Below, one piece after another: positions 531-32,545 of a DNA stretch of 32,545 nucleotides. Origin of the DNA: Hydrurus foetidus (Eukaryota); the NCBI GenBank assembly GCA_900617105.1, contig UYFQ01000390.1, positions 1 through 32,545 of the forward strand, written 5' to 3'. A program made the translations under genes and the position numbers. Position 1 is the stretch's first letter. Each line of letters begins with the position of its first letter. Below the pieces are notes generated by a model. The model worked only from the letters and a program-made list of their open reading frames with translations, did not search any database and was not told where the DNA came from.

Positions 531-535
531 TCTTT

Positions 536-625
536 GTCTTCGAGCACGGACTAGTTACTAGCGCACGTGTTGAAGTTGCCGTAGGAGCACGTACCCAGGA
601 AGGATAAAACCAGGAAATAAAGCCA
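536..625 (+). repeat. 3' end of an LTR from a family-B-related copia element (diverged)
   Basis: GTCTTCGAGCACGGACTAGTTACTAGCGCACGTGTTGAAGTTGCCGTAGGAGCACGTACCCAGGAAGGA...CCAGGAAATAAAGCCA aligns by eye to 13868-13979 of the B LTR and ends in CA. Confidence 0.85.
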
Positions 626-627
626 GG

Positions 628-1776
628 GCCTCCAGTGACCCTGTGATCGTCCTTGAAGTGGCATCCTCCAACTGGGCTGCCTAAAAGAAGCAGTCATACC
701 GCCTGTTTCAAACTAAATTTGGACGCATAGGCGCGTCCATAATATCTGGCATTCGCCCCGCCACATTTGTTTTACCATCATGTCACGACGTTGATACAAC
801 TGGCTCCTACAAATTCAATCATCTACCTCGTACAGAGCCACCAACAGAACCAACCACAACAACAGAGCCACAAACAGCTCCAATCGTAATCCCTGACCTA
901 ACCTCATTTGGCTACGACATGTTGCGCGACTCCATCAAACGAGCACTCGACCAACAGAAAATCAATGAGAAGGACGATTATGATCTCCTTACCCACATCT
1001 TCTCAACCATGTCGTCCGAGTCTCACCTCTCCCTCGAAACTCATCCATCTTACCTCGTATTCCGAGCCACCCCTTCAACCCAAAAATCATTCGAATGTTG
1101 GGCCATACTTACCCTCATTCATTCTACGGGGAATGCATCCACTAAACTTCTCCGAACTCGGAACCTACTTCAGTCACAACAGGGTGATTCAACTCTGAGT
1201 CTCTTCCTTCAGACACTATCAACAAAAGTCGAACAGTTCAAATCAGATTTCGGTAGCCCGGCCAACTCAGAGCTCGTTTCTGTAAACGAAATTCACTGCT
1301 TCCTTATTCTTACCGGCATTCCCCGCAATGGCCTGTTCAACCTCCCTATGAACAACCTCCTCGCAGCAACCCCATCAGCCCGATTTACAGATCCAGCTGC
1401 ACTGGCTACCACCCTCCTCAACTGGGAGAAAAGCAGCGCACTACTTCATCTCTCCGACACTCCTTCCTCTCAAGCCTCTGCATATCTCGCAACAACACCT
1501 CCTCCCTCCAAATCCAACACAAACCCACCTGTCACAATATTCTGTGTCCACTGCCATAAGAAGTACCCGAAGAAGCCTAAAACCAACACTCATACTTCAC
1601 TGTCCTGCGGCCTTAACCCAGCCAACCGACCTGTTAATCCACCCTCCAACTTTACAGCAATGCGTACATTACTAGCGCAAGCTAAAGCTGCCACTCCCGG
1701 ATCATCTGCGTCAACTAATCTACTAATGCAACTTACAGATTCAGCATTCGAGGAATCTCTCAAGACCTCCGCCTAG
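628..1776 (+). pseudogene. gag: A1 gag, with a premature TAA at 682-684
   Basis: ASSDPVIVLEVASSNWAA*KKQSYRLFQTKFG matches the A2 N-terminus TILDIVSDNWAQFNKAFTLSCYTKFG. It is in frame with ORF 919-1776 and has a C-X2-C-X12-H-X4-C knuckle. Confidence 0.85.
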
Positions 1777-4700: not shown

Positions 4701-5180
4701 AAATCTAGCTCCTCCGCTACCTCAAAGGTCACCCACATCTCGGCCCCACCTTCACCGCCATCCCGTCTAACCACCCCGACGGTGTAACCCTCTTTGCCTC
4801 TGCTGACGCCTCCCATGCCTGCCATCCCGACGGCTCTAGCCACGCCGCCTACACCCTCAGCGTCGGCCTCAACACAGCTCCCTTCCTTGCCTGCTCGTCG
4901 AAAGAAAAAGGCATTTCGCTCAACCCTTGTGAATCTGAATATAAGACACTCACAAAATGCGCCAAAGACGTCATTTTCTACCGACAATTCGCTACCGACC
5001 TCGGCCATCCGCAAACATCGCCCACTATAATCTATGAAGACAACAAATCCGCTATTAAACTCACTGAAGCTCCAGCCGTCACCCGCAAATCCCGCCACAT
5101 CTTCGTCCAGCATCACTACATCCGGTGGCTCCACCAAGCAAACCACATCACACTCCAGCACCAAGGCACACACGACATTG
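1777..5180 (+). pseudogene. pol: A1 pol (protease, integrase, RT, truncated RNase H)
   Basis: Protease YWDSGSS; integrase HHALGH...CVHC plus FDP/HSDP/VERY; RT YGLKQA and HVDD; RNase H ADASHA/CESEY/YEDN. Stops at 3031-3033 and 4706-4708, with frameshifts or deletions between 3034 and 3660. Confidence 0.92.
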
Positions 5181-5338
5181 TCGTTAGCCAGATCTGCTGA
5201 GCACATAATAATCTAGCTTAACTATTAAGCAAATTCTCGTTCTAAGTCAGATCTTGGACCCTACCCTTCCGGTATCAGTCCAACATTTGCTTAATAGTTA
5301 AGCTAGATTATTATGTGCTCAGCAGATCTGGCTAACGA
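5181..5338. repeat. Perfect 54-bp inverted repeat (5181-5234 / 5285-5338) with a 50-bp spacer; MITE-like or foldback
   Basis: The arms are exact reverse complements. No TSD is visible. Confidence 0.9.
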
Positions 5339-11763: not shown

Positions 11764-13400
11764 TCACTGGGCGTGGTGCTTTCCAATAGCTGCTGCGGCT
11801 GCCTTAGCGGAACGTAGGCAGCCTTCGAAGTTGCTCTCAGTGAAAGCATCTCCCGTCACTACAACAATACCGCTGCTAACAATATCTTCAAAACGACCAT
11901 CATCTAGTTTTCTTTTGCCACTTCATGGCGGAATTATAAGTTGATGAAGGTAATACGGTTAAATTAGACGTATATTTCGGTAGTGAAGATGATTACAACA
12001 ATTACTAGCTTAATGAATTCGATCACAACAGACAGACACGTGATCAGGATTGTTGCATCCACTACCTTCTCGATGCGTCACTAGACAGTTCTGGCTGCTG
12101 CAGAATGTTGACTTCTCCTTCAAATCCGAAATTGCTGAGTCCTTTACTAATCTGTGAGTCTCTCCAATTGACGATGTGGTGACTATCTGGTTCTCCTATA
12201 AAACGATATAAAAGAAAGTTTTCATGCACAAAACTCACGTGCTTCGGTTGAATCTTAGTGACTCTGCATAATGTGACAGGTAATGAATAAATTGACAAAA
12301 CGTACCTAGGGAAGGAAAGATCATGTTCAAGCTCTTAAGAATCATCTCGTAGACTACTTTCTCGTCAGTGTCTTTGTGTTGAATACCAAATGGAACGCTG
12401 GTATGCACGAGTATAGATGGTCCTGATCCGCTGTGTCCCTCTGACACTGCGCTGACATCTCCCTCCCTAGTAATCTCAGTCTCAGATTTACTGGCTGGGA
12501 AATTCGATTTCCTATTCTCAATCGACACGTAGCGAATAATTTCGTCATCGAAAATGTATTTACCGCTCCACTTTACATTTTGTAAAGCTGACCAGGAGCT
12601 GAAATGGTAATAAAAGGCCACTGCAAATCTGTGGGTTTGATGACGAGAAAACAATCGTTTAGTTGCATGATGACAACTGCACTCGAAGAAAACCAATCAG
12701 GCAAAAGAATTATTTAAATAATCCAGAGGAAGTCAAATGCACGTGAAATTTACCTCGAAGAGTAGACGACGGAACTAAGCTGTTCTCTAAATTTTGTTCC
12801 GAACATTCCCACGATGTCACCCTCTAATGCTAGCAGCTGAGGAGTAGGAAGACTTAATACAATTGTGTCGAAAGACTCTTCCACTTTCGACCCCAATTTT
12901 GATCCCACTGCTGAGTAAACGTTGCTTTTTAATTCTTCGCAGTACTTCACTGTGATGGATTCCAAAGCTGTATCATAGCAAAATACGCTCGGGGGATCAG
13001 TCACTTGCCCTTTCGAAAGATAATCAACAACAGAGGAGAGCCCATTAGGAGCAATATAATGTGTCTTCAAAGCATGTTCTGGTCTCATTCCACTGATAAC
13101 GCTGTTATCGACCATCGGTGCAATAATGCCTGCATCATTAAGTAACGAGTAAATCAAACTCTCTGCTTCATCGGATGACCTCGTCAAATATTGAGCACCC
13201 ATATCGCAGTGAGATTCAGTGTGCTTCCCGTTCCGATCTGGGGCACTATCTAAATAATTCGTAATCATTCTGCCACCGAGGCTGCTGCTCTTTTCCCAGA
13301 CAGTATAAGATGGTCTCAGTGCAGGAAACATAGATGTGACATATCGATTGACAGCTGCTCCGGTAATTCCACATCCAACGACTAAAATTCTCGGTGACAT
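11764..13400 (-). CDS. RNLS: Renalase-like FAD-dependent oxidoreductase, 4 exons
   Basis: Exons 13400-12754, 12628-12306, 12195-12066, 11875 (or 11872, NAGNAG)-11764. Motifs: VVGCGITG, WEKS..LGGRM, DMGAQY, YSSRFA, HTSVPFG, WRDSQ, GDAFTESNFEGCLRSA. Confidence 0.88.
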
Positions 13401-13574
13401 TGGTCCCTCGAAGACAATTTCGGTTAATGAAATTCTATGAGAAGAAATTATTAAGGGAGTGACCTATGTTGGTTCGTTCAAACTAATCATCCTAAGTGGT
13501 CGAATGTCGGAAGAGAAGAAGTTTCAAGGTTCTGCATTACTTTCTGAAAAAGTGAAGAACGATGATTCAGTGAC

Positions 13575-13614
13575 TGTCAGTGTGTCACTGCTTCAGTTCC
13601 CCCGACCGTCGCCC
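13575..13614 (+). repeat. A2 5' LTR, first 40 bp
   Basis: Matches 25301-25340 and is interrupted by element B. Confidence 0.93.
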
Positions 13615-13979
13615 TGTCGGAATAACTATGAGTTAAGTAACCGTATAAGTTATTGCGTATGTACATTTGATGACGTTTCGTACGTCGTGTGCCGGGTGGA
13701 GGTCGCTACTCCACCGGTCCAGGTTCCTTTAACCCAGGAAGATCAAAAAGATGAAAGTACACCATGTTTGACTGTGCGGGACAGATCGAATTTGTCGACT
13801 GTCTCCATGAACGTTGTAAGCCATGTTGCATCGTTAATTACCTTAAATCTCACACCAGCAGAGCTTCGTCTTTGAGCCGGGACAAGTTGCTAGCGCACGT
13901 GTTGAAGTTGCAGAAGGAGCGCGTACCCAGGAAGGATTTAGTATTCCGTTAATCGGAAGTAGAGCCAGGAAATACGACA
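13615..13979 (+). repeat. B 5' LTR (365 bp)
   Basis: Direct repeat of 19518-19883 with TG...CA termini. Confidence 0.97.
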
Positions 13980-13990
13980 TAATTAACGAT
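13980..13990 (+). promoter_or_regulatory. B primer-binding-site position, complementary to its own LTR (candidate self-priming PBS)
   Basis: TAATTAACGAT is the reverse complement of ATCGTTAATTA at 13830-13840. No TGG start. Confidence 0.8.
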
Positions 13991-14015
13991 ACCTTTCAGT
14001 GCCAAAAGTTGCAAC

Positions 14016-15111
14016 ATGAAAGGCAAAGGCAGAGAAGCAAAACCTGCGGGTAGAGGCGGAAACCCTGCCAACGGGGGCAGAGGTCATGCCACCCAAGGAA
14101 AGGCTCCACCAAGGACAGGAACGGTAGCCGCGATTGGCGCATTCCTGGACCTTGGAAGAGAGATGAACCATGGTAGCGTAAGCACATGGATGAGAAAGTT
14201 CCGTGAGTATACACGGACAAATTACAAATCGGACATTAGCGAAATCTTTGGAAACGAGGGGATACCTGGGGAGTACCCGCAGTATATCGCCCCTGTGGAT
14301 ATAGCTCGCGATTCCGACTTTATGGTCCAAACGAAATGGAAGCGAGCACTCGAGCTCTTCGATAAAAACGTCATCACCTTGAGAGAAGACAGAAAACAAG
14401 TCTTCGGACTTATGCTGGGACAGATCAGCGAAGCTTCAAAAGCTACAATAAGAGAGACAGAAGCCGGATTAAATGCGATGACAGCGGAGGATCCGTTACT
14501 GTTACTGAGAGCTATCATATTGACTCACCTATCGGACCCGAGGCTGGGAGCAGACCAGAACCTGTTAAGAGTACGAATGGCGTACGAGACGGTTAAAATG
14601 GAACCCAACGACGTGTTGAAGTTCTACTATCAACGGTTCAAAGCGTTGAAAGCCGGGTACGAGGATACCATGCGTGCCTTGGGAGTCATGCCCGAATACA
14701 ACGAGGTCATGACCACCCACAACCACTTACTGACTTCAATCAAGTTCATGAATGGACTGAACTCTGGATACCGACATTACGTGGAATATTAGGCTAAAAG
14801 CCTGGCCGATCAACTTAGAGGAAGCTTACCTAGAGATGGCTAAGGTTACCCCGAAGAAACCGGCCGGAACCGCCCCCCCAAATCAAACGAACGTACTCGC
14901 AGTGAAAAACGCCGGCGGAGAGAAAACTGCTGCGACTGATAAGAAAGGGAAGTCTGACGGGGGTGATGGGAAGAAGGGTACCCGTCCGGGGTACGGTACC
15001 CGATCGGGCAAGTGTAATAAATGCAATCAACCGGGACACTACGGTTATGAGTGTACGGCCACGGATAGCCCAGCGGCTGCACCAGCAGCCAGTGGAAAAT
15101 CTTTAAACTAA
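14016..15111 (+). pseudogene. gag: B gag with one frameshift near 14790
   Basis: ORF 14016-14792 ends GYRHYVEY*. The continuation RLKAWPINLEEAYLEM...CNKCNQPGHYGYEC (CX2CX4HX4C) is in the +1 frame, ending at TAA 15109-15111. Confidence 0.85.
15102..15108 (+). other. Candidate -1 ribosomal frameshift heptamer T TTA AAC
   Basis: X XXY YYZ in the gag frame directly before the gag stop. The -1 frame is open from here into pol. Confidence 0.75.
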
Positions 15112-18100
15112 GTAAGTTACATCACTCCTCACCTGTACACTCACCCACACCCGCACCTGTACATACACCTGCACTTACATTTACACACACACCTACACAC
15201 ACACGTACCGATCCTCCATGTTTGGCTGATTCCACTAGCGGAATTGAAACATGTGATCATATTGTTTTTAGTGCCAATACATGCAATGTATATAACATGA
15301 TTAAGAGTAGACACATACTGCTTGACACATGTGCTGGTGAGTCGGTATTCAACGACTCATCCCTGCTATACAATGTCGAACACGCACCTACACCTATGAT
15401 TGTTAGCGGGGTGAATCCGAAAGGAAAACCGCTAATAATCAAGAAACGTGGGGTGTCGGCGTTCGGCAATGTTTATTATAGCCCTGACTGTGCTGGTAAT
15501 ATATTGTCTTTTGGTAACGCTGTACGTGACTGTACTGATGTTAAGTACTTACATGACTATGATTGTTACATAGTGCAAGATGTCATTGGCCAATATTTTT
15601 ATAGATTCTCGCGAGATGAGTCTACGAATATATACCAATGTGATCTTGACACTATGGTAACTGAGTGCATGCCAATATTAGTTACGACAGTAGAAGAGAA
15701 GAAGAAGAAGTATACAGTAAGAGAGGTCAGAGACGCGTCGTTAGCTAGAGACTATCAGCGTAGACTAGGATACGCTAGCGCAGCACAAACTATTAAGTTG
15801 ATATCCCAAGGGAATTTGACTAATTGTAAAGTGACTGCGCGAGACGTACATAGAGCAATCGATATATGGGGACCGGACGTGGGATCCCTAAAGGGGAAGA
15901 CCACTAGTCACCAGGCTAAGATAGAAGAGAAGTTGCCATTGATAGGAATAGAGTATAAGACCGAACAGATAATGTATATAGACTTAATGTTCGTGAACAG
16001 AGTACCTTACCTAGTCACAGTAGTGCAGCCTATTGAGTTCCTGTATGTAAGCAAGTTAGCTAATAAAGACCATAAGACAATTTGGAATAGCTTGAAGACT
16101 GCATTAGCCAGCATGGTAAAACACAAGTTCAGAGTTAAGATGATTCGAGTAGACGGTGAGGGTGCAATAAACACCGAATGGTTTCACAACAAAGTCGGTT
16201 TAAGAGGTATAGTATTAGACGTTACCGGAGCCGGGGAAGCCGTAGCCGTAGTAGAACGTAAGATCAGACATATCAAAGAGAGAGTCAGATCAGTCATAAA
16301 TTCGTTACCATTTCAGTTAGATGATAAGCTCGAAGTGTGGTTAGTTAAGTATGCAGTCAGTAGAATTGTATTAGCTCCCACACGTAACTCCACCAATCAT
16401 ATCAGCCCTAGAGAGAAATTGACAGGTAGAAAGATAGATATTGATAAGGAGATTAAACATGGATTTGGTGATTATGTACAAGTGCACAATGATGTAATTG
16501 ATAATTCCACCAAACCAAGAACTGCCGGGGCCATAGCACTTATGAGCTCCGGTAATCTAGAAGGTTCATGGTTTTATATGCTGTTAGCAAATGGGCAGAT
16601 AGTTAAGAGAACTAAAGCCACTATATTACCCATGCCTGATGAAGTCATACTGCATTTGAATAAACTTGCATCGACTAGAAAGACTGCCAATGTTAAACAA
16701 CCTGTATTCGAGAGTAGTCACACTGTATTCAATGATGATGATGATTTTGATGATGATGCTGAATATATTGGTGATATCGAATATGATATCATTGACGAAT
16801 CTGCTGTTGCAGAAGAAGTTGATGATAACATTGAAGATAACTTTGTTGACGATACTCCATATGTTGAACCACAACTTGACACATATGATGAAGATCACCC
16901 ACCCACATTAGATGAATATGTAGATGACACACTATATGTGACAGACACTACTGATGATGCTATTCAATATGATGCACATGAGTATACACCTAAGTATGAT
17001 CAAGCTTTAATAGATGATATATTTGGTGTTAGTGATGATGAAGATGATTTTAATGATGTATCTGTACACTCTGAAGTATTCACACCACCTGTTACAATAG
17101 AAACTGAACATGACTCACCTGACACTGATTCACCCGTGTTGCGTAGAAGTGGTAGAAATCACCAACTTGGCAAATGGAATAAGAAGTTTGTTGGTAGTAT
17201 GTTGTATAATCACACCCACCTATACAAAATGACTGTTAATGAAGGAATTACTAAGTTAGGGGTGGTAGCTGTTGATTCCATCACATCTGAACTAAAACAA
17301 ATGTGTGATAAGAATGTATGGGAAGGTGTAACTTATGAATCCCTTACCCCTAAACAAAAACGCACCATTATACCTAGTAGCATGTTTTTAAAAGAAAAGT
17401 ACACTGCTGATGGTATGTTTGAAAAACTGAAATCTAGACTAGTTGCCGGTGGGCACTTACAAGATAGAGATGTTTATAATAATGGCGCATCACCTACTGC
17501 TAGCACATCCAGTGTATTCATACTAACTGCAATTGCTGCTAGACAGAACCGTGCCGTTGCTACTGTTGATTTCCCCGGTGCATTTCTGAATAGTGATATG
17601 CCGCTGACCGGTGACCATGTTGTATACATGCGTTTAAATAAACAACTAACTGCTGCACTAATTAAAATTGATGCAACATATAACAATTATATTAATGACA
17701 ATGGAACATGTATTGTTAAACTTAAGAAAGCATTATATGGATGTGTAGAATCTGCTAAATTATGGTATGACAAACTATCCAGTGATTTGATTAAATTCAA
17801 TTATACTGCTAATGAATATGACATATGTGTGTTCAACCGAATTGAATCCGATAATACACAAACATCACTCGTAATTCATGTTGATGACATGATCATAACT
17901 GCTTCAACTGAATCTCGTGTTGATGATGTTATAAGACAAATTGAAACTATATATCCCGGTCTAACAAAACACAGAGGAAAAGTTTTAAATTACATAGGTA
18001 TGACATTTGACTTCAGCAAGGAAGGAAGTGTCAAGATGACCATGGAAGGCTTCGTGCATGATCTTATTGAGGGGTGCAAAGACATGCCCGGGACGGCAAC

Positions 18101-18956
18101 TACACCCGCACGACCTAACCTATTCACTGTACCTAACGAATCCGACTCACTCTTACCTGATAATCTGCGTGAGCGTTTTCATTCTATTACAGCCAAGCTG
18201 CTCTACCTGAGCAAGAGGACTAGGCCAGACATTCTGACGGCCGTAGCGTTCCTCACCAAGCGAGTGCTTAATCCCCAGAGGGATGACTATGACAAGCTGA
18301 CCCGTACGATACAGTACATACGGGGTAGTCAGCACATGGGTATAACATTTGAACTATATGAACCTATTCATGTTATTGCATATATCGATGCATCCTTTGC
18401 CATACACCCCGATATGAAAAGTCACACAGGCAGCGTAATCACCCTGGGAAAGGGAGCGATCTACGCCAAGAGCGGTACTCAGCGCCTGATGACAAAGTCC
18501 AGCACGGAGGCGGAGTTAGTCGCACTTAGCGACGCTGCCAACCAAGTGCTGTGGACTAGGAACTTCCTGGAACGCCAGGGACATCCCCAACCTCCCGCAT
18601 TAGTGTACCAAGACAATCAGTCTACGATACAGCTGATACGGAACGGACGTTCGAACAGCGAACGTACGCGGCACGTTGATATACGGTATTTTTTCTTGCA
18701 CGACAGGATTACCACTGGCGATGTGGACATCGTATACCTACCTACCACCGACATGATAGCAGACATACTCACTAAGCCACTCCAAGGGGAGTTATTCAAG
18801 AAGCTCAGGAAGGAGCTACTCAACATTATCCCATCTACCCTCACGTACGCAGAAGGCTGCAAGACCGAGGACCGTACGGGCCCAGCACTGGCACCCGTAC
18901 GCACGAGAACCAACCCACGGTTCCCGTATCCTACACCCCACACTCAAAGAAAATAA
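15102..18956 (+). CDS. pol: B pol polyprotein (PR-IN-RT-RH), uninterrupted
   Basis: Protease LLDTCA; integrase YIDL/RVDGE/VERKIR; RT KSRLVAGG, VDFPGAFL, LYG, HVDD; RNase H YIDASF, TEAEL, QDNQS, ADILTK. Acidic linker between IN and RT. Confidence 0.95.
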   Translation, partial: FKLSKLHHSSPVHSPTPAPVHTPALTFTHTPTHTRTDPPCLADSTSGIETCDHIVFSANTCNVYNMIKSRHILLDTCAGESVFNDSSLLYNVEHAPTPMIVSGVNPKGKPLIIKKRGVSAFGNVYYSPDCAGNILSFGNAVRDCTDVKYLHDYDCYIVQDVIGQYFYRFSRDESTNIYQCDLDTMVTECMPILVTTVEEKKKKYTVREVRDASLARDYQRRLGYASAAQTIKLISQGNLTNCKVTARDVHRAIDIWGPDVGSLKGKTTSHQAKIEEKLPLIGIEYKTEQIMYIDLMFVNRVPYLVTVVQPIEFLYVSKLANKDHKTIWNSLKTALASMVKHKFRVKMIRVDGEGAINTEWFHNKVGLRGIVLDVTGAGEAVAVVERKIRHIKERVRSVINSLPFQLDDKLEVWLVKYAVSRIVLAPTRNSTNHISPREKLTGRKIDIDKEIKHGFGDYVQVHNDVIDNSTKPRTAGAIALMSSGNLEGSWFYMLLANGQIVKRTKATILPMPDEVILHLNKLASTRKTANVKQPVFESSHTVFNDDDDFDDDAEYIGDIEYDIIDESAVAEEVDDNIEDNFVDDTPYVEPQLDTYDEDHPPTLDEYVDDTLYVTDTTDDAIQYDAHEYTPKYDQALIDDIFGVSDDEDDFNDVSVHSEVFTPPVTIETEHDSPDTDSPVLRRSGRNHQLGKWNKKFVGSMLYNHTHLYKMTVNEGITKLGVVAVDSITSELKQMCDKNVWEGVTYESLTPKQKRTIIPSSMFLKEKYTADGMFEKLKSRLVAGGHLQDRDVYNNGASPTASTSSVFILTAIAARQNRAVATVDFPGAFLNSDMPLTGDHVVYMRLNKQLTAALIKIDATYNNYINDNGTCIVKLKKALYGCVESAKLWYDKLSSDLIKFNYTANEYDICVFNRIESDNTQTSLVIHVDDMIITASTESRVDDVIRQIETIYPGLTKHRGKVLNYIGMTFDFSKEGSVKMTMEGFVHDLIEGCKDMPGTATTPARPNLFTVPNESDSLLPDNLRERFHSITAKLLYLSKRTRPDILTAVAFLTKRVLNPQRDDYDKLTRTIQYIRGSQHMGITFELYEPIHVIAYIDASFAIHPDMKSHTGSVITLGKGAIYAKSGTQRLMTKSSTEAELVALSDAANQVLWTRNFLERQGHPQPPALVYQDNQSTIQLIRNGRSNSERTRHVDIRYFFLHDRITTGDVDIVYLPTTDMIADILTKPLQGELFKKLRKELLNIIPSTLTYAEGCKTEDRTGPALAPVRTRTNPRFPYPTPHTQRK

Positions 18957-18963
18957 ATGTTTG

Positions 18964-19111
18964 CTGACGAAGACTCAAAGACTCCGTCATTTCTGCTGCC
19001 CATCCCATCCGACTCTACTACCCCATCAGTGCGCATTCTGACGAAGACCCCAAGACTCCATCATTCCTGCTACCCCCTCCATCATTTTCTACTACCCCGT
19101 CAAGTGCGAAT
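18964..19111 (+). repeat. ~74-bp tandem duplication in the B 3' UTR
   Basis: CTGACGAAGAC...AAGACTCC.TCATT.CTGCT.CCC...CTACTACCCC.TCA.GTGCG occurs at 18964 and 19038. Confidence 0.75.
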
Positions 19112-19517
19112 CGAGACCAAGACCGAACACTGAAGACTCCAAGAAAATCCCGACAGAGACATAAAGAGCGAGGAACGTGGACCCAGACCCAAGACCCGAT
19201 TCCGGGATGAGATAGTACCATCAGTCAGAAAATTACTTTTAAGTGCATTCTTTTGCGTGTTACATAAAGTCTTTTTAGTATTGTTTAACTCTATGCTCAT
19301 TCGGATCAGTCAGACCTTATGATACTAATATTACCCTGTGTGTAATAAATTATCTAACGTCACAATTAAAGTCAACCTCACTATTACCCTACTTCCCTAC
19401 ACTACGAAATCATGTCATGATACACCATTTGTGAAACTCCAAGTAAACGGAGTATTTTTGAATTCTATTGCGTTTTCATTCGCGTACACCAACCCGACGA
19501 CTCACGCCATAGGGGTG

Positions 19518-19883
19518 TGTCGGAATAACTAATGAGTTAAGTAACCGTATAAGTTATTGCGTATGTACATTTGATGACGTTTCGTACGTCGTGTGCCGTG
19601 TGGAGGTCGCTACTCCACCGGTCCAGGTTCCTTTAACCCAGGAAGATCAAAAAGATGAAAGTACACCATGTTTGACTGTGCGGGACAGATCGAATTTGTC
19701 GACTGTCTCCATGAACGTTGTAAGCCATGTTGCATCGTTAATTACCTTAAATCTCACACCAGCAGAGCTTCGTCTTTGAGCCGGGACAAGTTGCTAGCGC
19801 ACGTGTTGAAGTTGCAGAAGGAGCGCGTACCCAGGAAGGATTTAGTATTCCGTTAATCGGAAGTAGAGCCAGGAAATACGACA
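19518..19883 (+). repeat. B 3' LTR (366 bp), preceded by a short PPT-like ATAGGGGTG
   Basis: Direct repeat of 13615-13979. Confidence 0.97.
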
Positions 19884-19888
19884 CGCCC

Positions 19889-20115
19889 CCCCCCCCCTCT
19901 TTTCACAACCGCATACATCGACATTTTCATGCACATTCCGTTCGCTCATTTCACTACACGTTAGATGTCTTCCTGTAATTCAATCTCAATGTATCTCAAC
20001 TTCTCTCGATCTATTCACTCAATACCATTCTGCTCACACAATATAAAGCAGTAATCTTTTAAACAATTCTGTTTCTACCGCATCGTCTTACCGACTTCCG
20101 GCCGATTCACTGACA
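19889..20115 (+). repeat. A2 5' LTR, remainder
   Basis: Matches ~25341-25568 and ends CACTGACA. Confidence 0.95.
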
Positions 20116-20129
20116 ATTGTTTAAAAGAT
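20116..20129 (+). promoter_or_regulatory. A2 primer-binding-site position, complementary to its own LTR (candidate self-priming PBS)
   Basis: ATTGTTTAAAAGAT is the reverse complement of ATCTTTTAAACAAT at 20054-20067. The gag ATG follows immediately. Confidence 0.85.
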
Positions 20130-21353
20130 ATGCTTCCTGCTACAGTCCATCCTAGCGCCCCAGCCGCAACAATTCTCGACATTGTCTCAGATAATTGGGC
20201 ACAGTTTAACAAGGCTTTCACCTTGTCTTGCTACACAAAATTTGGAGTCGCGGGTCAGCAAATTCTTTCAAACAAAGAAATCCCACTTACTCCATTCGCT
20301 GTCGCCCCAACCAAATTGGATTTGGATACTAATCTCGCTGGGAGACCAATACCCGGTCAATACACGTATGCTAGACGCACCACAACAGCAGCTGAAGCTG
20401 CACTCCCGGAATTCGACCTCGCAACAATCTCTTTAACTGAATCAGCTAATCGTGAATATCGCGAGGATCTAAAACTCTACACCGCAGCTGCCCGTATCTT
20501 TGCCCTAGAGGACACTGAGTGCCTCGATCATTTACATCGACACATTTCATTACCTTCTCACACGTCAATCAAAACCCATCCGCTCTACACAGCGTACCAA
20601 CTTCTCCCTATAGGCAAACGCAGCTATGCCTTTTATAAAATGGCAAGGGACATACACTCCATCGGCAACGCAACAACCAAATTACACCGTACTCGTCTGT
20701 ACGTCAATATGTCGCAGATCGATCTCACTCACGAACAATATATGGAACAAATCTGCTCTATGGCTGAAACCTTCAACATTGACTTCGAATCTCCAACCTA
20801 CCCCGGCTACGTTCGCCTAAACGAATTTCACAGCTTCATCTATCTCGCAGGCCTAGATCGCACACAATTTCGAAGAGTCATCGATGAAACTCTCCAGACC
20901 AATCCAACTGGTCGCTTTCCAGACCATATCGCCCTCATGGCCCAAATACAAACTTGGAAAGTAGCCAACGCCTTATCTTTTACAAGGGAGGCTATCTCTA
21001 CTCAGGGGTCAGCTCTTATCGCTAAACCATCCCCTTCAACAAAATCAAACAAAAAGGAGCCTACTCAACGTCCACACCTACATCCTTCACCCTGCACATG
21101 GTGCCTATCCGCTGACAAAGTCTCACGGTATGGCCACTTATCATCTCACTGTTCTAAAAACCCCAACCGACTCCCTGGCCCTAGTCCTGCTCCTGTCCCA
21201 CCAACTCCTCGCCCTCCCTCAAACACATCTACTCGTCTCCATGCACTACTAAGCCAGCTCGACACTGCCACCACGCCAAACGATACTAATGCTGCCATGC
21301 TTCTAATTGCTGAAGCAGCTATTGAAGCGTCCGACTATCCCGACAGCGCCTGA
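20130..21353 (+). CDS. gag: A2 gag, 407 aa
   Basis: Located right after the LTR/PBS; similar to A1 gag; C-X2-C-X10-H-X4-C knuckle. Confidence 0.88.
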   Translation: MLPATVHPSAPAATILDIVSDNWAQFNKAFTLSCYTKFGVAGQQILSNKEIPLTPFAVAPTKLDLDTNLAGRPIPGQYTYARRTTTAAEAALPEFDLATISLTESANREYREDLKLYTAAARIFALEDTECLDHLHRHISLPSHTSIKTHPLYTAYQLLPIGKRSYAFYKMARDIHSIGNATTKLHRTRLYVNMSQIDLTHEQYMEQICSMAETFNIDFESPTYPGYVRLNEFHSFIYLAGLDRTQFRRVIDETLQTNPTGRFPDHIALMAQIQTWKVANALSFTREAISTQGSALIAKPSPSTKSNKKEPTQRPHLHPSPCTWCLSADKVSRYGHLSSHCSKNPNRLPGPSPAPVPPTPRPPSNTSTRLHALLSQLDTATTPNDTNAAMLLIAEAAIEASDYPDSA

Positions 21354-24300
21354 CTACCTGTAGTCAACAGCCACACTCTATCCAACATCACACTCGCTTC
21401 ACCTGACCCTCTTGCTCTAACCGCCGACTATGCTCCTACAAATTGCCCATACTCCACCCTTGCTATCCCTTACCCAAGTTCTTTAGCCCTTTCTTCACAA
21501 AGGACTGTCATTATTCCTTCCATCCTCGCACCAACTTACTGGGATAACGCATGCTCATTCCACACAGTCAACGACCTGACCCTGCTATACAATACTTCAA
21601 CCCTACATGCTCCATTCTCTCTGGGTGGCGTCGGTGGAACCTGTCTAGTCACTCATCGTGGTTACCTTCACTGCCTACCCCACAACAACAATATGAACGT
21701 TGCCTACTACGCTCCAACTATACCAGTCAACTTGTTCAGTCTAGGACACCTTCAGCGATGTGGAGCTAGCTACGGCCCAGACCCACTTCGACCCCTCACA
21801 CATGTCTCCGTCTATTCATCAATCTCTGGCCCCCTACTAGCCCATGCTACACTCTCACCAAATAACCTCCTTCTCGTCGACTTCAATGCTCTTAAAATGG
21901 CATCAATCCTGTCCCCCCTACGATACCATCCCTCCTACGCACTAAATGCTACATTCCCAATCCAACATATCAACGCTGAACAGCACGCTCGGGCTGATGC
22001 TGCTGAGCAGCTGCACATCGACCTTTGCCATCCATCGGACAGGAGTCTCTGCTCGAATCTCTCTACTGGCAAACTACCATTCACTACACTAACATGTACT
22101 GACATCACCCTCAACCGTCAACTCCGCGGCCCTTGCCCCCATTGCGCCGCTGGTAAGCACACCAACCCACCACACCCTCCATCAACAAGCCCTCCCGCTA
22201 CATCCATTGGTGAGGTCATCTCAATCGACCCACAGCTCCTTCCAGAACCTTCACCGGGACAACACACACACGAAATAATCCTCGTGGATGAGTTCACCGG
22301 CCACCTCTCTGTCGTTGGTGCCACATCAAAATCAACCCCGGCTGTATTCAAAGCACTACAACACATCATATCCACCACCTTCAACGCAAACCAACACCGC
22401 GTCGGTACAATCCACGGCGATTGCGAAAAGATCAATATCTCTCTCGCTGGCCCCCTTGGCTCGCTCGGCATCAATCTCCATACATCCCCTCCTGGAGAAC
22501 ATGCCGCGCGAGTCGAACGCTATATTCTTATCCTCCGCCAACTGTCCATCGCAATACTCTCAGCACTATCCTACATCCTCCCCTCCAAATATACCCTGTA
22601 TCTCCACAAAGCCATCGCATCGGTCCGAAACTCACTCATCAATTCTCGCAGCTCCCCCTCTACACCCGACGAACTCCTACGAGGTACCAAACCATCCCGT
22701 CGCCAATTCCCCTTCGGAGCCTGTTGCATGGTAACCCAGCACTACGACAAACGTGTTGCCCTTGCCCGTGCACATCAGTCCTCACCTGCCGTCGAAGCTA
22801 AGGCCGAAATCGGTGTCTGTATGGGCCATGATCATATCACTGGCCGAACCCTCTTTCTCCTCGCTAATGGTGCTATCGTACCTCGACGTCCCACATCGCA
22901 ACTACCATCCTCCTATGTCCCATTTAATTGGACCCCTAAAACCTTCGTGATCACCACACCCATTCCCTCTCCAACACAAGACCTCGCATCACCTCTACCC
23001 GCACCTCCCCTCAACTGTGTCGTCCAATTGCCACACGTCCCCCACTCCGACGCTATCGCCACAGTAACCGGTCATATCCCCTCCCCCCTCAACAGCGATC
23101 TTCTCTCCTACATCCGCCAACCACCCTCATTGATCCCTACCTCAACGACAACCCATCCCGGAGAATACACACTTCAAACCTTGATAACTCCATCTACCCC
23201 ACCTCAATCACCTACCACCATTGCCACGGCTATACCCAACGCGGCACCTACAGACCCATCCACTCCTCCAGCCGTGATCGACAACATCACTCATAGCTCA
23301 ATGCTATCCCCACTACCTACACCACCCACCACGCCTACACACATCTCTACACCGGCGCCGCGTCCTTCACGCAATACAGCACACCCACCCAACTTCTGGA
23401 AAGGTGCTTGCGTCAGCTCAGCCCCAAATACCGTACCCCCCAATAATGAACGCATGTCAGCCATCAAAAGAAAACTCTTCCTTTCTCAACAAGCAGCAAT
23501 CCGCAATAGGAACCACCGCCTCCAAAACCCAACACCATACAATAACCGAACCACCAACATTCTGCCTGAGCCTCTCCCCACACGCCGCGCAGAGATGTCG
23601 ATTCGTAAGGCCTCGAACCTATACAACGCCGCCGACATTTCCGCGGGCATCTCCAAGGAACTTTGCAAACACTTCACAACTTACAAATCACTAACACTCC
23701 TACCAAGACACGCCATCGAACCAAATGCAGTATTCATGCGAAGTCAAATCTTCATTTAAAAAAAATCCAATGGTCTCATTACAGCCAGGCTCGCTATTGA
23801 CGGCAGTACACAACCCCGCAAAACCTACAATGACACTTACGCAGGCACTTCTGATACAACAAACCGCGCATTTCTCCTTCAAGCATACATAGCAGATGCC
23901 ACACATCGTGGGTGCCTCGACCAATTACGCATAGGAGATTTTGACTTTCCCGGTGCCTTCCTTCATAATAAATTAACACGCGAAATGACCAATGGTCATC
24001 AGCTCATAGCCAAACTCCCATCGGATCTCCCCAGCCCACTCGCCGGACAACTTGCCGAAATTACCGGGTGCTGCTACGGGATCAAGCAGGCTAATCACGA
24101 GTATGATAAGGATCTAATCAACCTTCTTACCAACGCTGGCTTCATACCTACTGCCTCTGACCCACACTCTTTCCACAAACGCTGCTCTAACAACCCTTCA
24201 GATTCCTTGACCCTAAACATGCATGTTGATGATGGGTGGTACGTTACGTGCTCCGTCCCGCTCCTTGCCGAACTTAAGGCCGTTCTCACAATGCGCTACG

Positions 24301-25199
24301 GCCCCATCGACTTTCACGATGCCTCTAACGGCGTCTGCGGCGTCCGACTTACACGCCACCACGACCACTCTTGCACCCTAGATCAAGGTCCTCATATCAC
24401 CAAATTCCTCCACCGCGCGGGAATGGACCTGGTCCCACCAGCTCTCACACCATCCACGGCCACATTCTTCGACCCCCCCACCGACCTAACACCAGTTGAT
24501 AAAACCCGATTTCTCAGCGTGAATGGCAACCTTGTATTCCTCCTGCCCATACGCCATGATATACGCAAGGAAGTCATCCATCTATGCTCACGCAACTCCA
24601 ACCCTGTGCAGTCCGATCTTACCAAGCAGATACACGTCCTTCGCTATCTCAAAAGCTGTCCTGATCTTGGCCCCACATTCTCCACTAATCCCTCCGCTTA
24701 TCCCAACGGAGTCACAATCACAGCTGCTGCTGATTCCTCCCACGCATGCCATGCCGACGGCCGCAGCCACTCAGCTTATATCATCCGCATTGGACTCAAC
24801 ACCGCACCTTTCGTTACGCACTCAGCATCTGAAACCTCTGCTATTGCACTAAGCCCCTGTGAAGCAGAGTATCTCGCCCTCGGTCGGTGTGCTCAGCATG
24901 TCCTATACTTCAGACAATTCGCGGCCGACATTGGCTTCCCCCAAACCGCACCCACTGTTATCTTTGAAGATAACCAACCCGCTATCAATCTAACAGTCGC
25001 CCCTGGAATCACCCGCAAATCCAGGCACATCGCACTCAAAGAACACTATATTCGCTGGCTCTTCCAATCTAAACAAATCGCACCACAATTTGTGGGAACA
25101 AACGACATGCTCGCTGACGGCCTCACTAAAAGTCTCGCTCCATCAAAGTTCCTCTGGTTTCGCAAGGAACTATTCAATTCACATAATTTACAGAAATAG
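21354..25199 (+). pseudogene. pol: A2 pol, in frame with gag after a TGA; single nonsense TAA at 23757-23759
   Basis: Protease YWDNACS; integrase HIDLCH...CPHC plus IDP/HGD/VERY; RT TARLAIDG, DFPGAFL, YGIKQA, HVDD; RNase H DSSHA, CEAEY, EDNQ, ADGLTK. The TAA replaces the Lys seen in A1 (FIKRKS). Confidence 0.93.
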
Positions 25200-25300
25200 C
25201 CTGCTTCTTTCTATTTTCTATTCAAATACTTTAATCTTTTTTTTTCCTACATCTACACATATCCTCTCCATAATTCGCATATATATAGCTTACCGGCGCA

Positions 25301-25568
25301 TGTCAGTGTATCACTGCTTCAGTTCCCCCGACCGTCGCCTCCCCCCCCCCTCTTTTCACAACCGCATACATCGACATTTTCATGCACATTCCGTTCGCTC
25401 ATTTCACTACACGTTAGATGTCTTCCTGTAATTCAATCTCAATGTATCTCAACTTCTCTCGATCTATTCACTCGATACCATTCTGCTCACACAATATAAA
25501 GCAGTAATCTTTTAAACAATTCTGTTTCTACCGCATCGTCTTACCGACTTCCGGCCGATTCACTGACA
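25301..25568 (+). repeat. A2 3' LTR (268 bp)
   Basis: About 4 differences from the reconstructed 5' LTR; 8-bp terminal inverted repeat. Confidence 0.96.
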
Positions 25569-26147: not shown

Positions 26148-28250
26148 ATGGAGAATTTCGGAAATCGAGGAAGAGGCAATGGTTTACCGTGGACGTTTCT
26201 ACGATCATTCAGCGAAGGTGATCAAAGTGGTGATTCTGCTTATTGACTTTTGATGCACTTATCTTTCTCATTATCGATTCCAGATCCTGAAGTAGCACCT
26301 TTCCTCCTTGATTTGGGGGTTAAAGTTGGCAGAGTCACCAATAGCAGAATCTCGACGACCTCTTACTATCACTGCAAGGTGGGAGGTTGCAAGAAGCAGT
26401 ACAGAGTCATCAAGTTAGTCGACGACGAAGACGTTGACAATCTCTATGTGGAGGAGGTAGCAAATGAATTCTATGATCACGCTGTAGCAGACGTTAATAT
26501 CAGAGGATTGTCACCGCGACAGAAGGAAATAGTCCTTCAATGCCACATGAGGAGGCAAAGTGCTCCCAAACGTGTCGTCGATGAATTCGATCGTCAAGCT
26601 GCAATCCTACTGACAGCAAACCTACCGGTTGTTCCAACTCCAACAACGGATATGATATCGAGCTTTCTATCTCATCATCGGAAGCTTCAAAGAGCTGGCA
26701 TCCCTGTTGGCAAGACAAGTCTCCAGGATTTGGAAAAGTCCTCACAAGATAATAGGATAGATAATAAGAATGATTAGAAAGTCAAAATAATCTTTACAAG
26801 CTAACACAACATAAACTTAAACTCAGTTGTAAATCAGGGTCTCGATGTAGCTGCTGTTTTGGACTACGAGCATGATGATGGAGTGAAGGGACCCTACTTC
26901 TCCATTTTATTTTGTTACTTGATCGATGGTACCCATTTTACACGTCCCATCGAAATAGACGACACCTACAAGCTGATTCATGAAGTATACACAGTTACTG
27001 TGTTGGGCCAGACTGATGCGGATCGTGTATTTCACACAAGAGCCGTTGGGATATCAACGAATAGTAGCGAGAGAGACCGAGTGCCACTATTCACGCCTCG
27101 TGCATACTTGGGCGATTCCGCAAAAGCCTATGCCAAGGCTGCACTGAGCATCTTTCCCTCTATTGCTGTCCGATTAATGTGCTTCGCTCACGTTTACAAA
27201 GGAAGTCTGGCAAGTGAAGTCAACTCACTACTTGGTGATCTACCGTTCATTAAAGTACTATAGGAATATAGTCTGAATTGATTATGATTATATGTTTACA
27301 ACTTGTAGAAAGTGGAGAAGCAGGATTAGGCCGTCAGAGGGAAGTTTCTCCATGATATAAATGCGATATCCCTGTCGTTCACCTCGGAGCAAGTCTTACT
27401 CGCAGTGGAAGGCAAATGAGAACGCTACAGTTCTCAATGTCACGGCTCATTTCAGAGCACAGTGGACTAACAATCATGTTAGTAACTGGACGAGAGGGTA
27501 CTGTCCCAATTGCGTCATCAACAATAATGGACTCGAGGCAACCAATGGAGTCATCAAGGATGAGGTGACACAGAGAAGGCTTTTGTCTGTACTGACTTTT
27601 TTGTACAAATATCGAGGTGGCTTACGTCCCAGTCTACTAGGAGGGATCCAGCAAATTCAAATTCCATTCCATTTACCGGCGTCCATACTATCGCAACAAG
27701 TAACTGGACTGAGGCATACAGATGGTCTAGGGACACTGCGCGACAACTCCGTATCACGAATGATGGGGTGTATGTAGCCGTCAATGGCGACGTTAGGGGC
27801 GATCTGACAGATGAAAAAGCGGCCAACTTTGTGGCTATGTTTACTAATGTCACATTCGGATCCTTCGATGACTTCACTAAGACATCAAATAACGTCTGTG
27901 TCATCAAACCGGATCTTACTAGGCAAGAGGGATACAATTGTACTTGTAAAGTTAATGCCAAAGAAGACAGCTGCAATCACTCCCTCGGTGTCGCCATTGT
28001 CCGAGGCGCTCTTGTTCCTCCCAGAGAAGCAAAGGTCACCCTCCTCGGACGTAAGAGAAAAAGAGAGAGAAAGCCACTAGCTGCTCCTGCCTGGCAGCAT
28101 CAACCTTTCGACATCGTTTCTCCCCAGTATCATCCTGAGCAAAATCCTGATATTCTTGCAGGTGTAGTTGCCCCACCAAATGAGCCCCTGAATGCTCAAA
28201 ATGCAATACTAGAAGAGCATGTTGAAGTACCTAATGCCATTGAACAGTGA
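26148..28250 (+). pseudogene. Mutator/MULE-type DDE transposase with a SWIM zinc finger, fragmented by introns and/or frameshifts
   Basis: Motifs EIDDTYKL, YLGDSAKA...MCFAHV (CxxH), NNGLEATNGVIK and YNCTCK...CNH lie in successive frames. TIRs were not found. Confidence 0.82.
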
Positions 28251-29969: not shown

Positions 29970-32545
29970 TAGGGCTGGTGTCCGACTCCAAAAGTGAAGT
30001 CGGACCGGACAGTCGGACATCCACTGAAATGTCGGACGGACAGTCCGACATTCTCGGACAAATTGAGATAATCGGAGTCGGACGGAAGTCGGACAAAAGT
30101 CGGACGGAAGAGGTACGGAAGTCGGACAGATAACGTTTGGAAGTCGGACAGACGGACACTTTTTTTAATTTCTCTCTCGCATTCCTCAGCCAGCGGCCAA
30201 CTGTCGTGCAGGACTATCAGATCGGAAGCATGCTGTGGCTGAATAGAGGTGCGACAGAGAAAACGCGCTCGGAAGGTGCAGAAGTGGCAGGTATGCAGAG
30301 GATTCTACGAGCTAAAATGGCAGTGTGCATGATTGGCAGGCCTTTCATGGCTTTGTAACAATCAAGTTCGAGGGAAACGGTAATGTCGATTTCGTCATCG
30401 GCAACAGCGCTCTCGTCATCATCTCCGATACCTTCGAAGAGAGCTGTCAGTGGCCTCGCGACATCCTTTGAAGGTGCAACAACGGCATCTAAATTTGCAA
30501 ATTGGGCTTTTCTGGTTCTTATTTCGTCGGTGATTTTGCGCATCAAGGACTTAATCTGATCCCAGATTTTAATTCTGTCCAGGACTCCAATGTACTTCAA
30601 AGACTTTGAGCGGGGATCCAAGGCTGCGGCCAACAAGCTCGTTCGTGGGAATCCTTTTTGTCTGTTTGATCTGCCAGGTACCTCGTTTTCATCATACAGA
30701 GTATTCACTTCACCCTTGCCCCAGTAAGTGTTTAGTCCCTTAATCTTGTGATTCAGCATTTCATTTGCGAGTGTCCTCACGACGTCTGAGCGAGCGTTCT
30801 CACATTTGTCCTCCAACTTTTGTCTGACAACAGTGATGAGGTATGGGGCGAAGGGAAGAGTCGCGTACTTCTGACCCTCCAGGAACTGTTGGATCAGCAT
30901 GAAAGGTTCGAGCAACTCCTCTATATCCTCCAGCATGCTCCACTCAGTTCCAGTTAGATTCAACTCATCCTCGATAACTCCCTCAATAACTAATAATCCA
31001 AAGTATAATTTCAACTCTCGCAATCGCTTCACAAACTTCCATGTCGACCACCACCTTGTAGGACAGTCGTTGACGACTTTCTTCGGCTTCGTGTTGCTTC
31101 CGCGAGTCTGAATTGCTGCTAAGGACTCACTAGCTTGTACACTTGATTTGAAATGTCCTACGAGAGCTCGTGCACGTCTCATGAGATCCGGCGACGGTGA
31201 AGGCCAGCCCCTGCAAAAATCGGACCAACGACCGTGAGTGTACGACGCTACTGCTTGACGATCTAGGCTTTAACCTTCACACAGATGGTGTAAAAATGTT
31301 AAAAAACACTCACCGTAGTCAGCTCCATAACGTGATTTACATAGTAGTGGTGGGGGACTCCGTTGGGCAGCTGTTTACCAAAAGCACCCATTACTGGCGC
31401 TGTATCTGTCACTACGCAGACCATATTACGGATATCCAAATCAAATGCTGTCCATGCATTGGTGAGCTCCCTGATAATGTCACCAGCTTTCGAACCACCA
31501 GCATGTTCTTCACAGCCCAGTGTAAACGACCTCATCTGCCACGTGTCACTAATGTAGTGACATGTCACTCCTAGATAGTTAGTGCCAGCCAGAGATGTCC
31601 AGTGATCACAAGTCAGTGCGAAGTGTTTTTCCATCATCTCCGACTTCAATGTAGTTCTGACTCTACTCGCTTGTTCGCCTATGACACTGACGACCTTGTG
31701 GCGATCAAAGAATTGGACCTTTGGGTTCAATTCAGAACACATCCTCCTGAAGTGTTTGTTTTCGCATGTGTTGATAGGTTGGTAGGTGAACACGATCCAC
31801 TTTAAGAAGCTTTGGGAGAAATTGCCTCCATATGTAACATAATCCGCTATTTTTTCTCCCCTCTTGACTGATGCATCCGCTGCGGTAGCGTTCCGTGTTT
31901 GAATAATTTGTTGATGTCACTTCTCAATATGACGAGACAAAGTCGTTGTGCACGAATCCTAAAAAGATTATAATTGATTAATTGATTAAGGGATGCAATT
32001 TGAAGAGTACCGACGTTGCGTAATTTGTACCTTGTATTCAACAGTGAAATTGATGCTTTTGTCACTCTCAGCAGCTAGACGGCAAATGTTACATGACACC
32101 ACACCTTTCTTGTCAGGATGCGTCAAAATATTGAATTTGTGGAAGTGATCCCACACCCAAGAAGTTGACTTCGATGGAATCAATGTGATAACTGAAGAAT
32201 CAACACGGGTCGATGGCGCATTTATTCCATAAAAGTTGTGTCTATTATCTCTAACAGTTGTAGTCTGCTTTCTTGCTTTCTTGCTTTCTTGTTGTCCGGC
32301 TTTTTGGTCGATGTGCTAAAGGACGAATTTGAGATAGATGATGTTGATGAGCAACTGCCATACTGAAGTGCCAGCGCCCGATTTTCGGCAGTTATAGAGT
32401 TCTCTTCTTCGTAATCTTCCCAGTCATCTGCACTCCTTTTTCTACTCGGTAGAGAGTTGTCTGTAACTGCACTAGCCATCTCTGCTGCGAAACTGCGGTT
32501 CCGAATTGTGATAGCGTCGTCAGAACTTATTCAAAGGTCCTAAGA
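29970..32545 (-). mobile_element. hAT DNA transposon (3' end at 29970; 5' end outside the window)
   Basis: Terminus TAGGGCTGGTGTCCG is followed by an array of TCGGAC/GTCCGA subterminal motifs (29980-30160), next to a hAT transposase. Confidence 0.85.
30217..32479 (-). pseudogene. hAT transposase, probably defective
   Basis: BED finger SWVWDHF...CNIC; TCDHWTS; VTDTA; TRWWST; LDPR; LCIPATSAPSERVFS. CxxH reads YVNH, the frame slips after the putative intron 31313-31211, and the dimerisation domain looks internally deleted. Confidence 0.87.

What the first reader, a model, noticed from the sequence alone, without database searches (positions are those of the whole stretch)
21345..21695. Gag-pol separated by a single in-frame UGA-CUA in A2: candidate stop-codon readthrough
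Seen: gag ends GCC TGA (21351-21353), followed by CTA CCT GTA..., open in the same frame through the protease motif YWDNACS. The first downstream in-frame ATG (21693) lies after the active site. Established: UGA-CUA is a known leaky context, and the Candida albicans copia element Tca2 has gag and pol separated by an in-frame UGA. Inference: programmed readthrough sets the Gag:Pol ratio.
Basis: partly seen in the sequence, partly recalled or inferred. Interest (0 to 1): 0.72.

Follow-up and report, generated by a model that had tools for sequence, protein, structure and literature searches.

The report
Family-wide gag stop in copia retrotransposon
A dead copy of a copia-type jumping gene has one stop codon between its coat gene and its enzyme genes, and its many freshwater relatives end the coat gene at the same place, so the enzymes are likely made by occasional reading through that stop, a rare but already known arrangement.

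Summary
Observation confirmed: gag ends GCC TGA (21351-21353), then CTA CCT, open in frame past the protease motif; first in-frame ATG 21693. The stop is inherited, not decay: 119 of 130 gag relatives that reach the C-terminus end at the same residue; no fused form was found among longer proteins (1 of 150 distant representatives is joined); five contigs from four sequencing runs, down to ~82% identity, show no change at TGA-CTA; decayed paralog A1 (32% gag identity) stops at the same column, with TAG. C follows the stop in every close relative readable (CTA-CCN, CAG-CCA, CTC-CCA); no 3' RNA structure. Readthrough is inferred (0.7), not measured; no RNA run was listed. Splicing and internal initiation remain; for the cited precedent Tca2 the junction gave no readthrough in a yeast reporter. 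Known in Tca2, VdLTRE5 and Tj1/Tosmo; this scan noted such junctions before on other DNA (21 notes, at least 5 genomes). New member of a known kind.

The parts
13575..13614 (+). 5' LTR of element A2, left piece (starts TGTCAGTG); 5-bp target duplication GTGAC at 13570-13574
   Evidence: matches the start of the 3' LTR
13615..19883 (+). Element B, a different copia element nested inside the 5' LTR of A2 (LTRs TGTCGG...CGACA; target duplication CGCCC on both sides)
   Evidence: RVT_2 E 2e-21
19884..20115 (+). 5' LTR of A2, right piece (ends CACTGACA); 1 mismatch to the 3' LTR over 228 nt
20130..21353 (+). gag, 407 aa: capsid fold (residues ~11-284), Cys/His knuckle-like motif at 21093, C-terminal helical hairpin, stop
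   Evidence: best fold match Drosophila Copia capsid 8vvw, Z 12.2, 174 aligned, rmsd 6.7
21351..21362 (+). gag stop TGA and its 3' context CTA CCT GTA (candidate readthrough signal)
   Evidence: no change listed in five bridging contigs
21354..21536 (+). In-frame, stop-free spacer of 61 codons without ATG; weakly constrained in amino-acid sequence; no stable RNA fold
21537..21764 (+). Protease domain (YWDNACS; Pfam Pol_BBD E 0.007, below its cut-off); contains the first in-frame ATG at 21693
22011..22520 (+). Integrase: HH-CC zinc finger and D,D,E-like residues (motifs assigned by eye from recalled consensus; relative P0078 has a weak rve hit)
23757..23759 (+). Second in-frame stop at the start of RT; private lesion of this copy
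   Evidence: contigs of 3 of 3 runs that cover the site read a sense codon
23760..25199 (+). RT (HVDD at 24222; RVT_2 E 0.004, below cut-off) and RNase H, pol stop TAG
25301..25568 (+). 3' LTR (268 nt), followed by target duplication GTGAC
1774..1776 (+). Paralog A1: TAG at the same gag C-terminal column, in frame with its protease, context GTC ATT; A1 is decayed

Best explanation
A2 is a broken copy of a copia LTR retrotransposon family whose gag ends at one inherited stop codon in frame with an ATG-less pol, and Pol is likely made as a Gag-Pol fusion when a few percent of ribosomes read through UGA-C. Shown: the layout, the family-wide gag end, the kept frame, the kept +4 C, the lesions of this copy. 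Inferred: a near-cognate tRNA decodes UGA; the short 3' context (CUA-CCN or CAG-CCA) rather than an RNA structure is the signal; the loose spacer is a linker from which the protease is cut free; the leak sets the Gag:Pol ratio.
For: (1) Gag end is inherited: of 172 gag-family proteins (65 cluster representatives; 107 listed members of 10 clusters), 130 reach the C-terminus; 119 end at the same residue as A2, 6 one residue later, 4 were missed by my pattern but end alike by eye, 1 (P0065) runs on 18 residues. The 45 full-length representatives are 41-96% identical, median 61%. (2) No fused gag-pol among 6356 candidates of 714-2035 aa (weak by the tool's own note); in a length-free profile search 149 of the 150 best of 329 hits are under 600 aa. 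(3) DNA across the junction: 5 contig records from 4 runs bridge the stop with 31+ letters each side and no difference is listed between 21334 and 21358; two are ~82% identical and keep a same-length spacer. (4) Two more X8 loose ends continue after the stop as CAG CCA (one contig) and CTC CCA (two contigs, 67% agreement); frameshifted relative P0247 reads the -1 frame across the junction and implies T-x-A CNA CNA with gag and protease in one frame over a shorter spacer. (5) A1, 32% gag identity, stops at the same column in frame. Open spacer by chance: 0.16 (A2) and 0.33 (A1), each times 1/3 for frame. (6) 18 of 20 scored differences to sister contigs in gag and pol are synonymous, so both frames were under selection with the stop in place. 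(7) UGA-CUA alone supports 1.5% readthrough in human cells (PMC4132726 abstract); UGA-CU is leaky in fungi and mammals (PMC4207609 abstract); the gag stop of Tj1 is needed for transposition (PMC4600332). (8) TGA is an ordinary stop in the host: the renalase-like gene beside the element ends in TGA, and 25 of 25 Trp codons in seven retroelement frames are TGG.
Against: No RNA, ribosome or protein data; no RNA run was available. Protein records show where gag ends but not which stop codon. DNA contexts come from few records, and X1 or X5 may be the window's own source. A1 has TAG-GTC, not a UGA-C context. The spacer looks unconstrained (5 of 5 scored differences change the residue, against 2 of 20 in gag and pol; Fisher p 0.0004, from 25 of 40 shown rows of a cut table), which an intron would also give. 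6 of 18 pol relatives have a called start upstream of the protease Asp, 4 of them among the 5 most distant. One distant representative (P0316) joins gag to pol pieces. In Tca2 the like layout gave no readthrough in a heterologous reporter.
Confidence: 0.7

Rival explanations
1. Pol comes from a minor spliced RNA: an intron from a donor in gag to an acceptor in the spacer removes the stop.
For: The stop lies inside CTGAC, a branch-point-like word, 16 nt before CAG at 21368-21370; several GT sites in gag are in frame with spacer AGs; the spacer is pyrimidine-rich and unconstrained; other copia elements use splicing to set Gag:Pol (PMC5580714 passages).
Against: Such branch-plus-AG pairs are common here: 6 of 26 CTRAY sites in the element body. 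The nearest in-frame donor-like site (21128) loses its G in contigs of 4 of 4 runs. An intron need not keep frame or stay stop-free, yet A2, A1, the 82% subfamily and P0247 all keep frame with spacers of different length. Two inferred host introns show no CTRAY near their acceptors. In the copia cases read, splicing makes the Gag RNA, not the Pol RNA.
Confidence: 0.12
2. Pol starts on its own, from an internal promoter or by reinitiation at a non-AUG codon in the spacer.
For: Tca2 has a weak junction promoter. In-frame ATC/ATT codons occur in the spacer (21387, 21465, 21510, 21513, 21522). 6 of 18 pol relatives have a called start before the protease Asp.
Against: No ATG before the protease in A2 or A1; the six called starts lie at six different distances (16-55 residues) from the Asp and 12 of 18 start after it; independent initiation would not need the gag frame to be kept; free Pol would need another route into the particle.
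Confidence: 0.1
3. The TGA is a chance nonsense mutation in a decayed single-ORF element.
For: The copy is dead and does carry another nonsense codon (23757) and a split LTR.
Against: The RT stop is private whereas the gag stop is shared by 119 of 130 relatives and by bridging contigs.
Confidence: 0.02
4. The host reads UGA as a sense codon (altered code), so gag-pol is one ORF.
For: Host not identified; some protists reassign stops (recalled).
Against: Neighbouring host gene ends in TGA; no TGA at any Trp site in seven long frames; A1 has TAG at the same place.
Confidence: 0.02

Closest known systems
Tca2 (pCal) of Candida albicans, Ty1/copia (PMC2194720: abstract, Background, Discussion read)
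   Same: Copia order; gag and pol in one frame separated by one UGA; Pol made from the gag-UGA-pol RNA.
   Different: Tca2 has a purine-rich spacer and a proposed pseudoknot after UGA; here the spacer is C-rich and unstructured. Tca2's junction gave no readthrough in S. cerevisiae; it lacks CARYYA (PMC3441728 passage), while some relatives here have CAG-CCA. No sequence comparison with Tca2 was made.
VdLTRE5 of Verticillium dahliae, Ty1/copia (PMC3441728: passages read)
   Same: Copia element with gag and pol split by UGA, read as a leaky stop.
   Different: Two copies, no CARYYA; here a large family with a kept +4 C.
Tj1, Tcry1, Tosmo1-3 of fission yeasts (PMC4600332, PMC10085805: passages read)
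   Same: In-frame TGA followed by CT (CTA/CTG), pol without AUG; stop essential for Tj1 transposition. Closest match in context.
   Different: These are Ty3/gypsy elements with a conserved GAA before the stop; here copia order and GCC before the stop.
Type II (UGA-CUA) and type I (UAG-CAR-YYA) viral readthrough signals (PMC13517186, PMC4132726: passages read)
   Same: A2 has UGA-CUA; one relative has CAG-CCA, which fits CAR-YYA.
   Different: No extended 3' stem-loop as in alphaviruses; A2 has CUAC, not the stronger CUAG.

Membership tests
Ty1/copia LTR retrotransposon | Direct LTRs with TG...CA ends and a 5-bp target duplication | tested here: met
   268-nt LTRs TGTCAGTG...CACTGACA, GTGAC on both flanks
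Ty1/copia LTR retrotransposon | Domain order gag, PR, IN, RT, RNase H | tested here: met
   Pol_BBD then IN motifs then RVT_2; IN and RNase H motifs assigned by eye; Pfam scores for A2 are below cut-off, relatives A1 and P0080 pass RVT_2
Ty1/copia LTR retrotransposon | Gag with retroelement capsid fold | tested here: met
   Model pLDDT 69; best match Copia capsid Z 12.2, the first 16 rows all retroelement-type capsids; Foldseek had no hit at E<=0.001
Ty1/copia LTR retrotransposon | tRNA primer-binding site and polypurine tract | tested here: inconclusive
   Only 14 nt lie between LTR and gag ATG and no clear purine tract precedes the 3' LTR; no host tRNA set to test
gag-stop-pol retroelements (Tca2, VdLTRE5, Tj1 type) | One in-frame stop between gag and pol, kept across the family | tested here: met
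gag-stop-pol retroelements (Tca2, VdLTRE5, Tj1 type) | No pol start codon before the protease active site | tested here: met
   Met for A2 and A1; 12 of 18 relatives start after the Asp, 6 before it at scattered places
Programmed stop-codon readthrough | Leaky context (UGA-C, UGA-CUA or CARYYA) | tested here: met
   A2 and close relatives; not met by paralog A1 (TAG-GTC)
Programmed stop-codon readthrough | Measured readthrough above background or a stop-spanning peptide | not testable with these tools
   needs a reporter, ribosome profiling or mass spectrometry
MuLV/alphavirus-type structured readthrough | 3' pseudoknot or extended stem-loop after the stop | tested here: not met
   z +1.0 for 21351-21500; 12 windows after the A2 stop z -0.05 to +2.4 and 12 after the A1 stop z -0.7 to +1.1; pseudoknots and pairings beyond 200 nt not modelled
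Tca2 lineage | RT phylogeny placing it with Tca2 | not tested
   no reference sequence on hand; only the layout is shared

The most novel reading that the evidence does not exclude
A large unnamed copia lineage of freshwater microbial eukaryotes (329 clusters at 50% identity, gag standing alone in 149 of the best 150) expresses Pol by structure-free readthrough and swaps freely between the two classic short signals after UGA, CUA-CCN and CAG-CCA, while a sister lineage uses UAG-G. That would be a natural allelic series of readthrough signals and the first copia junction that works as a short portable signal, which Tca2 did not.
Probability: 0.3. Interest if true: 0.55.

Novelty: new member of a known kind. 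Interest (0 to 1): 0.36.

Why it matters
Most copia elements set the Gag:Pol ratio by splicing, frameshifting or protein turnover; gag-stop-pol is called very rare (PMC3441728) and its mechanism in the model case, Tca2, is unresolved. A family with dozens of diverged members, a short leaky context and no downstream structure gives ready-made natural variants for a reporter test. It also warns annotators that a stop at this place is not a sign of decay, whereas the second stop in RT is. The arrangement itself is not new, and this scan has met it in other genomes.

Tried and rejected
No whole genome is held for the window, so sister copies of the same genome could not be aligned. No RNA holder listed among 20 runs; this says nothing on expression. 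Scans with the gag alignment found no relative in metagenome contigs (0 of 129 pattern hits) or viral contigs (0 of 37). A protease-motif DNA pattern gave 6 metagenome, 0 viral and 3 genome loci; only L003 and L006 are relatives (~35% pol identity); they have no ATG for 100 and 135 codons before the protease Asp but their gag end could not be placed, so they were not counted. A 6-bp hairpin that includes the stop codon was set aside: the region folds no better than shuffles. Gag has no Pfam hit and pol no PDB sequence hit. P0065 (gag running 18 residues past the usual end) and P0316 (gag joined to protease-like and RT/RNase H-like pieces, no integrase match) were looked at and judged likely damaged copies or gene models, without DNA to check. 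Paper searches listed no description of this family or of copia readthrough in a protist; Gao et al. 2003, the survey of gag-pol recoding, and Harrell et al. 2002 are not held and were not seen; no supplements were read, and the element tables of PMC2806351 may bear on how common the layout is in diatoms. The host was not identified.

Full report
OBSERVATION. The sequence is as described. Gag runs from ATG 20130 to GCC TGA at 21351-21353; CTA CCT GTA follows, and the frame stays open through YWDNACS (21537-21557) with the first in-frame ATG at 21693. TGA-CTA occurs once among 46 TGA triplets in the element body.

THE ELEMENT. A2 spans 13575-25568 with 268-nt LTRs and a GTGAC target duplication; a second copia element, B (13615-19883), is inserted in its 5' LTR. 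ORF1 has no Pfam hit but its model (pLDDT 69) matches the Drosophila Copia capsid best (Z 12.2, 174 residues, rmsd 6.7) and the first 16 rows are retroelement-type capsids (Foldseek alone gave nothing at E<=0.001). Pol has the copia order PR-IN-RT-RNase H (IN and RNase H motifs by eye). The host is an unidentified intron-containing eukaryote; of the 8 runs holding half or more of the words, 6 are biofilm, sediment or freshwater metagenomes and 2 a coded organism.

IS THE STOP INHERITED? Yes. A gag search gave 65 clusters; with 107 listed members of 10 clusters there are 172 proteins, 130 of which reach the C-terminus: 119 end at the same residue as A2, 6 one later, 4 escaped my pattern but end alike, 1 runs on by 18 residues. 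Identity among the 45 full-length representatives is 41-96%. That search could not see fusions, so I searched longer proteins (none among 6356 candidates, weak) and a length-free library (329 hits; of the best 150 only P0316 exceeds 600 aa, joining gag to protease-like and RT/RNase H-like pieces). Laying contigs of four runs on the junction, five records bridge the stop; two near-identical ones have all 6 differences elsewhere, and for three others (82-91% alike) no difference is listed at 21334-21358 although rows 31 letters from a piece end are listed. One of these runs may be the window's source. By contrast the RT stop is a sense codon in 3 of 3 runs that cover it, so it is a private lesion. 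Of 20 scored differences to sister contigs in gag and pol 18 are synonymous (25 of the 40 rows shown were scored, leaving out LTR, paralog, RT-stop and three other rows; 332 rows were not shown), so the family was under selection with the gag stop in place. Paralog A1 (gag 32%, pol 53% identical) has TAG at the same column and in frame.

CONTEXT. After the stop: CTA CCT (A2 and sisters), CTA CCA (82% subfamily), CAG CCA (one X8 contig), CTC CCA (two X8 contigs, 67% agreement), and CNA CNA deduced from P0247, a frameshifted relative (69% to A2 over 86 residues) that reads the -1 frame from the gag end to the protease motif, 48 codons against 64 in A2, proving one frame for gag and protease; its stop triplet can only be read as T-x-A. 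+4 C and +7 C are kept in all; CUA is not invariant. A1 has GTC ATT. No 3' structure was found.

MECHANISM. Most likely a few percent of ribosomes decode UGA with a near-cognate tRNA and make Gag-Pol. UGA-CUA alone gives 1.5% readthrough in human cells and CARYYA works after UGA (PMC4132726, abstract and passages); UGA-CU is leaky in fungi and mammals (PMC4207609, abstract). Frame and openness of the spacer are kept in A2 and A1 (chance of an open spacer 0.16 and 0.33) and over different lengths, which fits translation straight through. This step is inferred. Splicing is the main rival: the stop sits in CTGAC, 16 nt before a CAG, and the spacer changes freely (5 of 5 differences alter the residue; p 0.0004 against gag and pol). 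But such signals occur at 6 of 26 CTRAY sites, the nearest in-frame donor-like GT is lost in 4 of 4 runs, and an intron has no reason to keep frame. Independent initiation is the second rival: 6 of 18 pol relatives have called starts before the Asp, at six different distances. A changed genetic code is unlikely: the neighbouring host gene ends in TGA and all 25 Trp codons in seven frames are TGG.

COMPARISON. The layout is known in copia elements Tca2 (PMC2194720; abstract, Background, Discussion) and VdLTRE5 (PMC3441728; passages), and with the same TGA-CT context in gypsy elements Tj1, Tcry1 and Tosmo1-3 (PMC10085805, PMC4600332; passages). Plant copia elements use splicing for Gag (PMC5580714; passages). 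Diatom elements are described only as having one or no stop or frameshift between gag and pol (PMC2806351; passages); PMC6875170 (passages) added nothing; signal types are from PMC13517186 (passages). Searches listed no description of this family; the main survey (Gao et al. 2003) was not available. Earlier notes of this scan report like junctions in at least 5 genomes (21 notes), none on look-alike DNA; they are leads, not support.

VERDICT. Real, inherited gag-stop-pol junction in a dead copy of a large unnamed copia family; readthrough likely (0.7) but unmeasured. New member of a known kind; interest 0.36.

Noticed in passing
window 15069-15111 (element B): The end of B's gag frame overlaps the start of its 1295-codon pol frame and ends T TTA AAC TAA (15102-15111): a U-UUA-AAC slippery heptamer right before the stop, a candidate -1 frameshift. 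No stable 3' fold (z -0.7 to +0.3). B's gag also has a frame break near 14790. So two nested copia elements seem to use two different recoding routes.
   Followed up: partly
window 13575-25568: Nested insertion: B sits 40 nt inside the 5' LTR of A2 at a C-run; both have clean 5-bp target duplications and LTRs differing at only a few sites, so both are young. A2 lies ~170 nt upstream of a host renalase-like gene on the other strand.
   Followed up: yes
window 540-5200 (A1): Decayed paralog with further stops (682, 3031, 4706) and frame breaks; its 5' end follows a B-like LTR fragment, and its 3' end is cut by a 158-nt element with perfect 54-nt inverted arms (5181-5338), probably a MITE.
   Followed up: partly
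window 21213-21350 (gag residues 362-406): After the Cys/His knuckle, gag ends in a conserved helical hairpin (LHALLSQLD...AAMLLIAEAAIEAS), more conserved than its surroundings and ending right at the stop; role unexplained.
   Followed up: no
window 21093-21158: The gag knuckle has long spacing (C-x2-C-x11-H-x4-C) instead of the usual C-x2-C-x4-H-x4-C (usual spacing recalled), conserved across the family.
   Followed up: no
window 20116-20129 and 25270-25300: Only 14 nt separate the LTR from the gag ATG and no clear purine tract precedes the 3' LTR; priming mode of this family is unexplained.
   Followed up: no
window 1-560: Tandem array of ATTTTG, about 550 nt, at the window's start.
   Followed up: no
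window 11766-13400 (-), 9695-10450 (+), 26247-28250 (+), 30217-31916 (-): Host renalase-like FAD oxidoreductase with GT-AG introns of 110-125 nt; a KH-domain exon; MULE-like and hAT transposase remains (Pfam for hAT and KH; MULE-like by eye).
   Followed up: partly
L003:600-690: A distant relative repeats a short motif (AASIA...SRIS) both upstream in another frame and at the start of its pol frame; its gag-pol junction could not be placed.
   Followed up: no
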